Shown one piece after another: positions 1 to 2,045 of a DNA stretch of 64,000 bases; the stretch's first letter is position 1; every line of letters starts with the position of its first letter. The DNA comes from Candidatus Saccharimonadota bacterium (GTDB lineage: Bacteria > Patescibacteriota > Saccharimonadia > Saccharimonadales > Saccharimonadaceae). The notes below the pieces were generated by a model, which made no database searches, was not told where the DNA came from, and saw only the letters and a program-made list of their open reading frames with translations. Where the stretch lies: the NCBI GenBank assembly GCA_017459845.1, contig JAFUCF010000012.1, forward strand, positions 4,120-68,119, written 5' to 3'. Made by a program: the position numbers and the translations under genes.

Positions 1-2
1 TT

Positions 3-170
3 GTAATTATGCCTTTAATTATTACGAAAATGGTTATAAAAAATGGTAAGAATTTAGTAGCAATTCAAAAATGGCGTATTGAAAATAAAATGTTTTTCAG
101 AGTTTTTACAGGAGTTTGTTATTTAGTAATGGCGGCCTTCCTAGTCGCTTTTAAAATTATGGGAGTATAA
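3..170 (+). CDS. C-terminal fragment of a membrane protein; the gene starts before the window
   Basis: Open frame from nt 3 to TAA 168-170 (VIMPLIITKMVIKNGKNLVAIQKWRIENKMFFRVFTGVCYLVMAAFLVAFKIMGV*), with a hydrophobic C-terminal helix; the next ATG is 2 nt downstream. Confidence 0.55.
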   Translation, partial: VIMPLIITKMVIKNGKNLVAIQKWRIENKMFFRVFTGVCYLVMAAFLVAFKIMGV

Positions 171-172
171 TA

Positions 173-502
173 ATGGCTTTAATTGAAAAAGTAAAAACTA
201 GACGACGATATAGTAAGGCGGTTGCTGAAGAAAAGATAATGACTAGCCGGGCAAGTAAGACTAAAGTGAAGTTTTCTAAAAAGAAACTGGTTGCAGAAAT
301 TCTGTTTGAAGCAAGGGTGTTGAATCGGCATCTTGGAGCGGCAAAAATAATTGCAGAAAGGGTGGCAGACGAGGTAGAAACATGGGCAAGCGAACGCTCT
401 TTTATAACGGAAGATGATATTACACAGGTGGCCAGCAAGAAAATTGCAAAATACGATAAAGATTTAGCTTATATTTTTAAAAATCGTGGTAAAATAATAT
501 AA
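173..502 (+). CDS. Small stand-alone ATP-cone-like domain protein
   Basis: 109 aa; the pattern FSKKKLVAEI...AKIIAERVADEV...ITEDDITQVASKKI...LAYIF resembles an ATP-cone helical bundle; operonic with both neighbours. Confidence 0.5.
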   Translation: MALIEKVKTRRRYSKAVAEEKIMTSRASKTKVKFSKKKLVAEILFEARVLNRHLGAAKIIAERVADEVETWASERSFITEDDITQVASKKIAKYDKDLAYIFKNRGKII

Positions 503-504
503 AG

Positions 505-1923
505 ATGGGAAAAAAGATTGATTACGACGTTATAATAATTGGTGGTGGCGCAGCTGGGGTAACTGCCGCGCGAAATCTTGCTAAGGCAAAAAAGCACGTT
601 GCCATTGTTGAAGAGAGAAAACTCGGTGGGGCGAATCTTAATTATCGTGATATTCCATATGCGGCAGCACTGAACTTTTCACATTTATATACAGAAGCGA
701 TGGCGGGAGTGAAGTTTGGGATTACCTCTACTAACCTACGCTATAATTATCCAACTGCTCTTAAAGCACAATTACGCGCAATAGTCAAATCTGGCGAGAA
801 CTACACAAAGAAATCTCTGGAAGACGAAGGTATTACCTGTATTGCTGGGAGAGCACACTTTGTCTCTGCCCACGAGATTTCAATCCGTAAGCGAACTACT
901 GCTTCCCCGACGATAGAAGAAGTTAAGGCCGGGCTGGCTGGACAGACTTTGACGGCGAACAAGTTTTTAATCGCTACGGGGGCTGTTCCGAAAATATCAG
1001 GTATCACTGGGCTAAATGAGGCAAAGCATTATACTCCGGAGACGATCTTGAAAATTGAAAAACTGCCAAAGAGTATGTTAGTGATTGGCGGTGGTGCAAG
1101 CGGGGTGGAAATTGCCGAATACTTTGCAGGGTTAGGCGTAAAAGTAGTGTTAGTAGAACTAGCAGAGAGATTGTTACCTCGTGAAGATGAAGAAGTCGGG
1201 CAGCTTTTGGCGGCACACCTAGAAAAGAAGTTAGGCGTAAAGATTTTAACTAAAACTCGCGCCGTGGCTGCGCAAAGCGACACGATTTCTACAAAAATTA
1301 CTTTGTCTCATGGTGGACAAGAGAAGACCGTACGCGTAGAGTGCGTTGTAGCAGCGGTTGGTTCAGAGCCAAATACTGATCTTGGGCTGAAGAACGCCGG
1401 TGTAAGGTATGACAAAAAAGGTATTTACGTTGAGAAATCATTACAAACTACTGCGAAAAATATATATGCGGCTGGTGATGTTATCGGTGGAGATAGCGCA
1501 ACTGAGCTAGCAAATTATGAGGCTGGGGTTGCAGCGGCTAATATTGTTGGTAAGAATAGGAATATGGTAAATTACAACGGTTTTACCAGGGTAGTAAATA
1601 CTAACCCGCAGATTGCTACGGTGGGGATGACAGAAGACGATTTAATGAAACGCGACGTAAAATACGGTAAGGCATTGTTACCACTTTCGGCGGTTTCGGC
1701 AGCGGCTACTTCAGAACAGAAGCTTGGGTTTATCAAAATGCTGTCTAATAACCAAGGGAAAATACTTGGTACTACTTTGATGTGTCCAAATGCAGCGGCT
1801 TATCTGCAAGAGGTTGCACTTTGCGTCAGACACGGTCTTTCTGTGGTAGAGATAGCAAGTACGCCACACTTAAATACTGAATGGGGTGAGCTCGTAAGAC
1901 TAGCCGCGAAGAAGCTAGTCTAG
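505..1923 (+). CDS. Class I pyridine nucleotide-disulfide oxidoreductase family flavoprotein (lipoamide dehydrogenase-like) lacking the redox cysteines
   Basis: FAD motif IIIGGGAAG, ATG motif, NAD motif VIGGGASGVE, IYAAGD and a C-terminal dimerisation domain; GGANLNYRDIP replaces GGxCxxxGCIP. Confidence 0.85.
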   Translation: MGKKIDYDVIIIGGGAAGVTAARNLAKAKKHVAIVEERKLGGANLNYRDIPYAAALNFSHLYTEAMAGVKFGITSTNLRYNYPTALKAQLRAIVKSGENYTKKSLEDEGITCIAGRAHFVSAHEISIRKRTTASPTIEEVKAGLAGQTLTANKFLIATGAVPKISGITGLNEAKHYTPETILKIEKLPKSMLVIGGGASGVEIAEYFAGLGVKVVLVELAERLLPREDEEVGQLLAAHLEKKLGVKILTKTRAVAAQSDTISTKITLSHGGQEKTVRVECVVAAVGSEPNTDLGLKNAGVRYDKKGIYVEKSLQTTAKNIYAAGDVIGGDSATELANYEAGVAAANIVGKNRNMVNYNGFTRVVNTNPQIATVGMTEDDLMKRDVKYGKALLPLSAVSAAATSEQKLGFIKMLSNNQGKILGTTLMCPNAAAYLQEVALCVRHGLSVVEIASTPHLNTEWGELVRLAAKKLV

Positions 1924-1968: not shown

Positions 1969-2045
1969 CGCGGGGTAGAGCAGCCTGGTAGCTCGTTTGG
2001 CTCATAACCAAAAGGTCGTTGGTTCAAATCCAACCCCCGCCACCA
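1969..2045 (+). tRNA. Initiator tRNA-fMet (CAT)
   Basis: Cloverleaf CGCGGGG...CCCCGCC-A-CCA; anticodon CAT at 2003-2005; C1 unpaired (C1:C72) and A11:U24 are initiator hallmarks; CCA is encoded. Confidence 0.95.

What the first reader, a model, noticed from the sequence alone, without database searches (positions are those of the whole stretch)
505..1923. Lipoamide-dehydrogenase-like flavoprotein that has lost both redox cysteines and the catalytic His
Seen: where class I disulfide reductases have GGxCxxxGCIP, this protein reads GGANLNYRDIP. The C-terminal HAHPTLSE-type motif aligns as HLNTEWGE, so the acid-base His is Asn. FAD and NAD binding motifs are intact. Established: these residues are required for dithiol chemistry, and soluble transhydrogenase SthA and some NAD(P)H:quinone reductases in the family lack them. 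Inference: this is a repurposed flavoenzyme (transhydrogenase, quinone or oxygen reductase) or a pseudoenzyme, co-transcribed with a stand-alone ATP-cone protein that might regulate it.
Basis: partly seen in the sequence, partly recalled or inferred. Interest (0 to 1): 0.55.

Follow-up and report, generated by a model that had tools for sequence, protein, structure and literature searches.

The report
Cysteine-stripped flavoprotein of relic redox module
This Saccharibacteria gene encodes a lipoamide-dehydrogenase-like flavoprotein that keeps its FAD and NADH sites but has lost every catalytic cysteine, as has its CcdA-like membrane partner, so an old thiol-based electron relay survives as a conserved three-gene module doing an unknown thiol-free job.

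Summary
ORF 505-1923 is a 472-aa class I flavoprotein disulfide reductase (FDR) homologue. Both redox cysteines are replaced (N44, D49) and the acid-base His is Asn (N457). The FAD and NADH fingerprints are intact. This is not a sequencing error: about 160 relatives share the loss. The gene is in 159 of 168 sampled genomes of its GTDB family.

The genome has no lipoyl protein, so the protein is not Lpd. It is also not SthA, LpdA or MerA.

The new point is context. The gene ends a tightly packed operon: a CcdA/DsbD-derived membrane protein, a degenerate ATP-cone protein, then the FDR. Sister Saccharimonadia keep the thiol version:
- CcdA with both cysteines;
- a canonical ATP-cone;
- an FDR with CxxxxC plus a C-terminal cysteine;
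- a fourth, exported His/Cys-rich protein.

Intermediates suggest the membrane thiols were lost first, then FDR Cys1, then Cys2 (to Asp), then the ATP-cone hairpin.

The module is still under purifying selection. It is non-essential in published Southlakia Tn-seq.

The present function is unknown. My best guess is an NADH-dependent, thiol-free oxidoreductase.

This scan reached the same reading earlier on other Saccharibacteria genomes.

The parts
1..170 (+). 3' end of the first operon gene. The full gene is G000:C38:3594-4289 and encodes a 231-aa, six-helix membrane protein derived from CcdA/DsbD_TM, with both relay cysteines replaced (TM1 Cys by L22, TM4 Cys by F146). The stop TAA is at 168-170, 2 nt before the next start.
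   Evidence: ORF and junctions. AF2 model pLDDT 93.6. Atlas fold matches are LysE/MarC/DsbD-type. hhalign against CcdA-type orthologues: prob 98.75%, E 1.4e-16 over 219 columns. The Cys-bearing orthologues hit Pfam DsbD_TM/SfLAP.
173..502 (+). 109-aa small protein: a degenerate stand-alone ATP-cone. The four-helix core is kept, and the N-terminal VxKRxG hairpin is lost.
   Evidence: No Pfam hit. Orthologues L039/L040, L041, L047 and L049 hit PF03477. AF2 model pLDDT 84.8. The top Foldseek PDB hits are all ATP-cones (5olk, 9fxk, 9d3x; prob 0.9-0.99, E 0.1-0.5). N-terminal motif table.
505..1923 (+). 472-aa Cys-less, His-less class I FDR homologue. This is the finding.
   Evidence: Pfam Pyr_redox_2 (8e-54), Pyr_redox and Pyr_redox_dim. 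All NCBIfam equivalogs are below cut-off. PDB alignments.
541..558 (+). FAD-binding GxGxxG (G13-G18).
   Evidence: G13 and G15 are 100% and G18 is 98% conserved in 162 Cys-less relatives.
625..657 (+). Former redox-disulfide motif, GGANLNYRDIP (residues 41-51): Cys1 is N44 and Cys2 is D49.
   Evidence: Position 49 is Asp in 74% of Cys-less relatives, and position 44 is variable.
1087..1158 (+). NAD(H)-binding GxGxxG (G195-G200), E202, and the acidic residue E218 at the end of the second strand (an NADH-type fingerprint).
   Evidence: G195 100%, G197 93%, G200 93%, E202 96%, E218 85% plus D 9%. The NADH preference is an inference from the known Lpd versus glutathione reductase fingerprint.
1858..1908 (+). 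Remodelled C-terminal active-site loop and tail, STPHLNTEWGELVRLAA. His base is N457. P458 (invariant in Cys-bearing relatives) is replaced. Family-specific P454 and W460 are present. The C-terminal relay Cys is Ala.

Best explanation
The gene encodes the cytoplasmic flavoprotein of a three-gene module: a CcdA-derived membrane protein, an ATP-cone-derived small protein, and the FDR. The module descends from a four-gene NAD(P)H-driven thiol relay: FDR CxxxxC, then an FDR C-terminal Cys, then the two CcdA transmembrane Cys, then an exported His/Cys-rich protein. In this lineage the exported target gene is gone. Every relay cysteine has been replaced: N44, D49 and the tail Ala in the FDR, and L22 and F146 in the membrane protein. 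The ATP-cone has also lost its nucleotide-binding hairpin. The flavoprotein still binds FAD and NADH. It cannot do dithiol-disulfide chemistry. Most likely it works as an NADH-reduced, thiol-free oxidoreductase of the diaphorase type. Hydride would pass from NADH to FAD, and the reduced flavin would be reoxidised by a small non-disulfide acceptor (O2, a quinone-like compound or a metal chelate), probably while docked on the membrane partner through the small protein. Shown here: the residue losses, cofactor-motif conservation, operon conservation, ancestry, order of losses and purifying selection. Inferred: cofactor occupancy, NADH preference, the physical complex and the acceptor.
For: - Residue losses and intact cofactor motifs.
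- No lipoyl/biotinyl domain in the 97%-complete genome. A separate TrxA-TrxB pair is present.
- The operon is packed with 2-nt spacers. A promoter-like site lies 50 bp upstream of the first gene, and there is no internal terminator.
- The membrane-small-FDR order is kept in 27 of 29 species loci, and in 35-46% identical relatives.
- The Cys-less FDRs form one clade. Its sister clade keeps CxxxxC, with the His already Phe or Tyr.
- Thiol-bearing modules occur in 15 loci. They have CcdA motifs INPC and ELPC, Pfam DsbD_TM, a canonical ATP-cone, an FDR with GGECPNxxC, and a fourth overlapping gene.
- hhalign between the Cys-less and the CcdA-type membrane proteins gives prob 98.75%.
- Graded intermediates exist.
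- All 24 FDRs that keep a redox Cys also keep a C-terminal-tail Cys. That Cys is lost with the others.
- Constraint shifted. In the thiol set, mean pairwise identity is 77/58/58% for membrane protein/small protein/FDR. In the Cys-less set it is 35/38/49%. The FDR is now the most constrained part.
- pN is far below pS for all three genes.
- The gene is in 159/168 genomes of the family.
- Southlakia genes SEML1_0736-0738 have the same gene order, similar sizes and a flanking tRNA-Met. All are scored 'core family' and non-essential. Their Tn-seq reads fall 3-5 fold from T0 to T2 while neighbours stay flat (PMC10633639 Tables S1/S2). Orthology there rests on synteny; I did not compare sequences.
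- Precedent: yeast Irc15p, a Cys-less Lpd paralogue, is reduced by NAD(P)H. It reduces ferricyanide, DCPIP, MTT and menadione but no disulfide (PMC6296175).
Against: - No acceptor is identified, and nothing here shows catalysis.
- The former disulfide pocket is poorly conserved. Position 44 and positions 456-459 vary, and K53, which is 98% Lys in thiol-bearing relatives, is variable. This fits a lost si-face site, and perhaps only cofactor sensing.
- One congener (G340) keeps the FDR without the membrane or small proteins. One (G260) lacks the small protein. The complex is therefore not obligatory.
- Genus g27 lacks both the FDR (0/9 genomes) and the membrane protein (0/4).
- The module is dispensable in co-culture.
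- PDB fold searches did not recover CcdA structures for the membrane protein.
Confidence: 0.5

Rival explanations
1. It is a regulatory subunit rather than an enzyme. The flavoprotein, with the ATP-cone relic, senses the NADH/NAD+ ratio or flavin redox state. It then gates or tunes transport through the CcdA-derived membrane protein, which has become a LysE-superfamily-type transporter. This would be analogous to TrkA/KTN, KefF or Kv-beta subunits.
For: The cofactor motifs are strongly conserved, while the former substrate pocket (positions 44, 53, 456-459) is variable. The three-gene order is conserved over deep divergence. The membrane protein has new near-invariant polar residues (H32, E143, Y100, R201) and a LysE/MarC-like fold. 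All three Southlakia genes show a shared mild Tn-seq depletion.
Against: The membrane protein is now the least conserved member of the module (35% mean identity, against 49% for the FDR). G340 keeps the FDR alone. The analogy rests on recalled knowledge and was not tested.
Confidence: 0.2
2. It is a soluble pyridine nucleotide transhydrogenase, or an NAD(P)H:quinone reductase, of the kind the first reader proposed (STH/LpdA-like).
For: It is a class I FDR fold without a working dithiol. Ping-pong chemistry at the nicotinamide site needs no cysteine. SthA (9n4y) and LpdA (1xdi) are detectable homologues.
Against: The NCBIfam SthA model scores 212, against a cut-off of 465. The LpdA-type model scores 210, against 479. 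SthA keeps Cys1 (GGGCTHWGTIP) and has a different C-terminal motif. The family branches inside an Lpd/MerA-like clade, not with SthA. E218 is an NADH-type fingerprint with no sign of dual specificity. A soluble transhydrogenase would not explain the conserved membrane partner.
Confidence: 0.1
3. It is a hard-metal analogue of the mer system. The FDR would reduce a metal ion (for example Fe(III) or Cu(II)) bound by D49, H455' and E462'. The CcdA-derived protein would act as the metal transporter.
For: The MerA model is the second-best NCBIfam hit for this protein and the best for several basal Cys-less members. The clade had already replaced the His base by Phe or Tyr, as MerA has. D49, H455 and E462 are the best-conserved residues of the old pocket. 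In the published structure-based annotation, the best structural neighbours of the Southlakia membrane protein include UreH-like (Ni/Co transporter) TM domains. The lost fourth gene is rich in invariant His.
Against: E462 is only 59% conserved, and positions 44 and 457 are variable. No metal-related gene is in the neighbourhood. There is no direct evidence.
Confidence: 0.1
4. It is a decaying, functionless relic (a pseudoenzyme on its way out), or the residue changes are an assembly or sequencing artefact.
For: All catalytic residues are gone. The module is non-essential in Southlakia. It was not found in genus g27.
Against: Intact full-length ORFs occur in 159/168 genomes of the family. pN is 0.13-0.23 against pS of about 0.75. 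Cofactor motifs are 85-100% conserved. The same substitutions occur in about 160 independent sequences.
Confidence: 0.05

Closest known systems
Irc15p of Saccharomyces cerevisiae (Lpd1 paralogue; PMC6296175)
   Same: It is a class I FDR fold and binds FAD. Both redox cysteines are replaced. It is reduced by NAD(P)H and shows only diaphorase-type activity, with no disulfide reduction. It is the best functional analogy.
   Different: Irc15p keeps the His-Glu dyad, and this protein does not. Irc15p is a recent eukaryotic Lpd duplicate with no membrane or ATP-cone partner. The loss is independent.
Soluble transhydrogenase SthA/UdhA (E. coli b3962; PDB 9n4y) and M. tuberculosis LpdA Rv3303c (PDB 1xdi)
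   Same: They are class I FDR homologues with an incomplete dithiol and no His base. Their chemistry occurs at the nicotinamide site.
   Different: SthA keeps Cys1. This protein scores far below both NCBIfam models. It branches elsewhere and belongs to a membrane-linked operon. From memory, not tested here: LpdA keeps one Cys.
MerA-like / 'PRK06370 FAD-containing oxidoreductase' group of class I FDRs
   Same: These are the nearest sequence neighbours. The sister clade has CxxxxC with Phe or Tyr in place of the His base, plus a C-terminal-tail cysteine.
   Different: This protein has none of those cysteines. All model scores are below cut-off.
CcdA / DsbD / ScsB transmembrane reductant transporters (Pfam DsbD_TM; PMC3322552)
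   Same: The operon's membrane protein is homologous over its full length to CcdA-type proteins that carry the TM1 and TM4 cysteines.
   Different: Both essential cysteines are replaced here (L22, F146). Known CcdA/DsbD proteins take electrons from thioredoxin. In the ancestral module a dedicated FDR with an ATP-cone appears to take that role. I found no paper describing this arrangement.
ATP-cone domains of NrdR, NrdA, NrdD and NrdB
   Same: The small protein's four-helix core matches ATP-cones structurally. Its orthologues hit PF03477.
   Different: It is stand-alone and linked to a flavoprotein, not to ribonucleotide reductase. In this genome the nucleotide-binding N-terminal hairpin is missing.

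Membership tests
Dihydrolipoyl dehydrogenase (Lpd, TIGR01350) | Redox-active CxxxxC next to the flavin | tested here: not met
   N44 and D49 align with the two Cys.
Dihydrolipoyl dehydrogenase (Lpd, TIGR01350) | C-terminal His-Glu acid-base dyad (HAHPT..E) | tested here: not met
   The His is N457. E462 is kept here but is only 59% conserved in the family.
Dihydrolipoyl dehydrogenase (Lpd, TIGR01350) | Score at or above the curated equivalog cut-off | tested here: not met
   300.8 bits against a cut-off of 408.8.
Dihydrolipoyl dehydrogenase (Lpd, TIGR01350) | Lipoylated partner (E2 or H protein) in the genome | tested here: not met
   PF00364 was not found in the 97%-complete genome. The controls were positive in 14/14 genomes.
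Soluble transhydrogenase SthA (NF003585) | Model score above cut-off and the SthA motif GGxCxxxGTIP | tested here: not met
   212 bits against 465. The motif differs from E. coli SthA.
LpdA-type NAD(P)H-quinone dehydrogenase (NF005883) | Model score above cut-off | tested here: not met
   210 bits against 479.
Mercuric reductase MerA (TIGR02053) | Active-site and C-terminal cysteine pairs; model score above cut-off | tested here: not met
   290 bits against 454. There is no Cys at either site.
Class I flavoprotein disulfide reductase superfamily (Pyr_redox_2 + Pyr_redox_dim) | FAD and NAD(P) Rossmann domains plus the dimerisation domain | tested here: met
   PF07992 183 bits, PF00070 70 bits, PF02852 61 bits, all above cut-off. 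Fingerprints are conserved.
ATP-cone (PF03477), for the 173-502 protein | Pfam model match including the N-terminal VxKRxG nucleotide-binding hairpin | tested here: not met
   There is no hit at E<=10, and the hairpin motif is absent. Orthologues in L039, L040, L041, L047 and L049 do match.
ATP-cone (PF03477), for the 173-502 protein | Four-helix ATP-cone fold | tested here: inconclusive
   The top Foldseek hits are all ATP-cones (prob 0.9-0.99), but E is 0.1-0.5 and TM is about 0.5.
CcdA/DsbD_TM (PF02683), for the upstream membrane protein | Homology to DsbD_TM proteins | tested here: met
   hhalign gives prob 98.75% and E 1.4e-16 against orthologues that pass the DsbD_TM or SfLAP cut-offs. 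The window's own copy gives no direct Pfam hit.
CcdA/DsbD_TM (PF02683), for the upstream membrane protein | The two essential transmembrane cysteines (TM1 and TM4) | tested here: not met
   They are replaced by L22 and F146.

The most novel reading that the evidence does not exclude
The cysteine-stripped trio (CcdA-derived channel, ATP-cone relic, FAD/NADH flavoprotein) is a new kind of thiol-free membrane device. Either NADH oxidation by the flavoprotein drives or gates movement of a small molecule or ion through the former electron conduit, or electrons leave the flavin for a non-protein carrier handled by the membrane protein. Its thiol-bearing ancestor would be a previously undescribed thioredoxin-independent route: a dedicated ATP-cone-controlled FDR feeding CcdA and an exported His/Cys-rich protein.
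Probability: 0.25. Interest if true: 0.75.

Novelty: new variant of a known kind. Interest (0 to 1): 0.6.

Why it matters
Most Saccharibacteria carry an 'orphan dihydrolipoyl dehydrogenase' whose role has been called unclear (PMC6031116). The gene is scored as a core family in the only Tn-seq study of the group (PMC10633639). This analysis explains the anomaly. The protein is not a stray pyruvate dehydrogenase subunit. It is the cytoplasmic end of a membrane redox module.

The module's thiol-bearing and thiol-free forms both still exist in related lineages. That gives a rare natural series, with intermediates, of an entire multi-protein catalytic relay being stripped of its chemistry yet kept under selection.

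It also points to an undescribed way of feeding CcdA: a dedicated FDR plus ATP-cone instead of thioredoxin. Both forms can be tested directly in genetically tractable Saccharibacteria.

Tried and rejected
- Pfam and NCBIfam on the small protein and on the window's membrane protein gave no usable hits, even at E<=10.
- A profile of the small-protein family searched against PDB sequences gave only noise.
- Foldseek and VIA-align PDB searches with the high-confidence membrane-protein model returned only generic transporters (TM about 0.2; Z at most 8). They neither support nor exclude CcdA.
- dN/dS could not be computed because synonymous sites are saturated. Only pN far below pS is reported.
- The fourth, exported protein of the thiol-bearing modules has no Pfam, PDB or named Atlas relative.
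- Literature searches for Saccharibacteria or CPR combined with CcdA, ATP-cone, lipoamide dehydrogenase or NADH oxidase found only the passing remark in PMC6031116 and the Southlakia tables. No paper in the library links an ATP-cone to CcdA/DsbD.
- Lpd, SthA, LpdA and MerA membership were considered and rejected (see the membership tests).
- The sequencing-error explanation was rejected.
- The unpublished genome G341 (locus L094) was left out of all sequence analyses. It enters only as one genome in the tallies.
Full report
**Observation**

Window 505-1923 (+) is an intact 472-aa ORF. Pfam finds the three domains of a class I flavoprotein disulfide reductase (FDR): Pyr_redox_2, Pyr_redox and Pyr_redox_dim. 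phmmer against solved structures gives Lpd of Geobacillus (1ebd) at E 1.6e-50. It aligns N44 and D49 with the redox cysteines, N457 with the catalytic His, and E462 with the Glu. A direct alignment with E. coli Lpd and SthA gives the same register.

The codons are AAT, GAT and AAT. Two base changes would be needed at each former Cys. All NCBIfam equivalog models score below their cut-offs: Lpd 300.8 against 408.8, MerA 290 against 454, SthA 212 against 465, and LpdA-type 210 against 479.

**It is a family trait**

More than 100 orthologues at 45-79% identity lack both cysteines. All named ones come from Saccharibacteria, and NCBI calls them only 'NAD(P)/FAD-dependent oxidoreductase'. In an exhaustive search of 50%-identity representatives, the Cys-less proteins form a single clade of about 55 clusters.

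Among 162 Cys-less sequences the cofactor fingerprints are as conserved as in thiol-bearing relatives:
- G13 and G15 100%, G18 98%, E36 97%;
- G195 100%, G197 93%, G200 93%, E202 96%;
- E218 85% (plus D 9%), which I infer to be an NADH-type acidic residue;
- G324 100%, D325 88%.

By contrast, position 44 is variable and position 49 is Asp in 74%. K53 is 98% Lys in thiol-bearing relatives but variable here, as is P458 (100% Pro in those relatives). P454 and W460 are new family-specific residues.

The gene is found in 159 of 168 sampled genomes of its GTDB family. It is patchy elsewhere in the class.

**It is not Lpd**

The 737-kb genome is 97% complete and has no lipoyl/biotinyl domain. The only other Pyr_redox_2 protein is a 303-aa TrxB next to TrxA. 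A published genome paper had already remarked that the 'dihydrolipoyl dehydrogenase' of most Saccharibacteria has an unclear function (PMC6031116).

**Operon**

Its stop lies 2 nt before the 109-aa ORF (window 173-502). That ORF's stop lies 2 nt before the FDR start. A promoter-like site lies 50 bp upstream of the first gene. There is no plus-strand terminator inside the operon.

The same three-gene order is seen in:
- 27 of 29 other species loci;
- metagenomic contigs of 46-79% identical orthologues;
- members only 35-46% identical.

**The small protein**

The window's copy has no Pfam hit even at E<=10. It is nevertheless homologous to orthologues that do hit the ATP-cone model PF03477.

Its AF2 model (pLDDT 84.8) has a four-helix core. 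The best PDB matches to that core are all ATP-cones of NrdB, NrdR and NrdD. The canonical N-terminal VxKRxG...E.F hairpin is present in the thiol-bearing and basal Cys-less lineages. It is absent in the derived clade that includes this genome.

The genome's two canonical ATP-cones are elsewhere, in an RNR and in NrdR.

**The membrane protein**

The Atlas places its fold with LysE, MarC and DsbD-type proteins. Published structure-based annotation of the Southlakia counterpart (matched by gene order, see Genetics) says 'DsbD_2 / UreH-like / cytochrome c biogenesis TM domain'.

The decisive evidence comes from sister lineages of Saccharimonadia. In 15 loci from several GTDB families, the protein at this position carries the two canonical CcdA cysteines (TM1 'DSINPCAIGV', TM4 'VELPCTGA'). 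Examples tested passed the Pfam DsbD_TM or SfLAP cut-offs. Profile-profile comparison of the Cys-less set with this set gives 98.75% probability (E 1.4e-16, 219 columns). The TM4 Cys aligns with the near-invariant F146, and the TM1 Cys with L22.

PDB fold searches were uninformative.

**The thiol-bearing module**

In those same loci:
- The small protein, found in 13 of the 15, is a canonical ATP-cone.
- The FDR reads GGECPNxxC(V/I)PTKA ... IHAFPTWSE, so the CxxxxC is kept and the His base is already Phe.
- A fourth gene overlaps the start of the CcdA gene. It encodes an N-terminally anchored, exported protein with invariant His and Cys motifs (GGPVHWHADFExWACG, HEHxDxRIHLEG).

That fourth gene is present in all 15 loci whose CcdA keeps its cysteines, plus one intermediate. 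It is absent from the other loci held and from this genome.

Every one of 24 FDRs that keep a redox Cys also keeps a cysteine in the C-terminal tail ('RVACxK', or the second-last residue). The S...D proteins have lost it, with one exception. The window's protein has Ala there. This recalls the C-terminal redox centres of high-Mr TrxR and MerA; that comparison is from established knowledge and was not tested here.

**Order of events**

Intermediates exist at each step:
1. FDR CxxxxC with a Cys-less membrane protein (L050, L095, L097-L099, L101, L102, L105).
2. FDR A....C (L103, L104).
3. FDR S....D with an intact ATP-cone hairpin (L039, L040, L056-L064, L106-L111).
4. FDR N/S/A....D with a remodelled C-terminal loop and a degenerate ATP-cone. 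This is the window.

I infer that the membrane thiols and the exported target went first, then the FDR interchange Cys, then the flavin-proximal Cys (to Asp), then the nucleotide site of the ATP-cone. This polarity rests on a midpoint-rooted FastTree and on parsimony, not on a formal reconciliation.

**Selection**

In the thiol-bearing set (12 genomes, at least seven families), mean pairwise identity is 77% for the membrane protein, 58% for the small protein and 58% for the FDR. In the Cys-less set (33 loci, one family) the values are 35%, 38% and 49%. The membrane protein went from most to least constrained, and the FDR is now the best-conserved part.

Against the closest orthologue, pN is 0.23, 0.23 and 0.13, while pS is about 0.75 and saturated. 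All three genes are therefore under purifying selection.

Exceptions:
- G340, in the same genus, keeps the FDR alone.
- G260 lacks the small protein.
- Genus g27 lacks the FDR (0/9 genomes) and the membrane protein (0/4) with these queries.

**Genetics from the literature**

In Southlakia epibionticum the genes SEML1_0736, 0737 and 0738 are 744, 288 and 1377 bp long and are flanked by a tRNA-Met, as here. I take them as the orthologous operon on this synteny; their sequences were not compared.

All three are scored 'core family' and non-essential at all three time points. Their normalised Tn-seq reads fall from 2084 to 698, from 303 to 90, and from 3653 to 756 between T0 and T2. Flanking genes stay flat, and TrxB is essential (PMC10633639 Tables S1/S2). 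Reading this as a shared mild fitness cost is my interpretation of their numbers.

**Mechanism**

Shown here:
- the protein cannot perform dithiol chemistry;
- it retains conserved FAD and NADH fingerprints;
- it belongs to a module descended from a thiol relay.

Inferred: it is reduced by NADH and reoxidised by a non-disulfide acceptor, as shown for yeast Irc15p (PMC6296175). It possibly does this docked at the membrane.

My estimates for the present role:
- thiol-free NADH oxidoreductase, about 0.45-0.5;
- redox- or energy-sensing regulator of the membrane protein, about 0.2;
- transhydrogenase or quinone reductase of the STH/LpdA kind, about 0.1;
- hard-metal reductase working with a transporter, about 0.1;
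- functionless relic, about 0.05.

**Comparison and novelty**

Cys-depleted FDRs are known (Irc15p, SthA, LpdA). The loss of the cysteines alone would therefore make this just a new member of a known kind. What seems undescribed in the searched literature is:
- the FDR, ATP-cone and CcdA module;
- its exported fourth protein;
- the concerted, graded stripping of all relay thiols with retention of the module.

I rate it a new variant of a known kind.

After finishing my own analysis I found that this scan had reached the same reading on other Saccharibacteria genomes. Those notes agree with mine but were not used as evidence.

Noticed in passing
L082:504-1508, L084:749-1504, L089:365-1504 (other genomes); absent from the window's genome: This is the fourth gene of the thiol-bearing modules. 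It encodes an N-terminally anchored, exported protein with invariant motifs GGPVHWHADFExWACG and HEHxDxRIHLEG and three further invariant Cys. It has no Pfam, PDB or named Atlas relative. Atlas look-alikes come from Saccharimonadota and DPANN archaea. It is possibly a metal-binding target of the ancestral relay.
   Followed up: partly
L001:1-336 (-), continuing upstream to G000:C38:2377 (outside the window): A 366-aa secreted or anchored protein is transcribed divergently from the operon. It is made of repeats of C.EGYEYV.S.GKCYK.C..G.ERNPETNRC(R/K)K, with four Cys per repeat. Orthologous loci have a 490-606-aa protein with weak LTD or furin-like hits at the same place.
   Followed up: no
window 1969-2045 and 2752-2827: Two tRNA-Met (CAU) genes follow the operon. 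A promoter-like site lies just after the FDR stop (L001 2907-2935). The Southlakia operon is also flanked by tRNA-Met genes.
   Followed up: no
window 916-966 (residues 138-154 of the flavoprotein): A 17-residue insertion (KRTTASPTIEEVKAGLAGQ) in the FAD domain is seen here but not in the four sequences aligned with it. It matches the length gap between the 472-aa orthologues (73-79% identical) and the 454-462-aa orthologues. Whether the other 472-aa orthologues carry it was not checked.
   Followed up: no
L012 (G340:C2:102457-106818) and L017 (G260:C27:3194-7564): Two congeners break the operon pattern. G340 keeps the flavoprotein (55% identical) with no membrane or small protein found anywhere in its genome. 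G260 has the membrane gene directly upstream of the flavoprotein, with no small ORF between them.
   Followed up: partly
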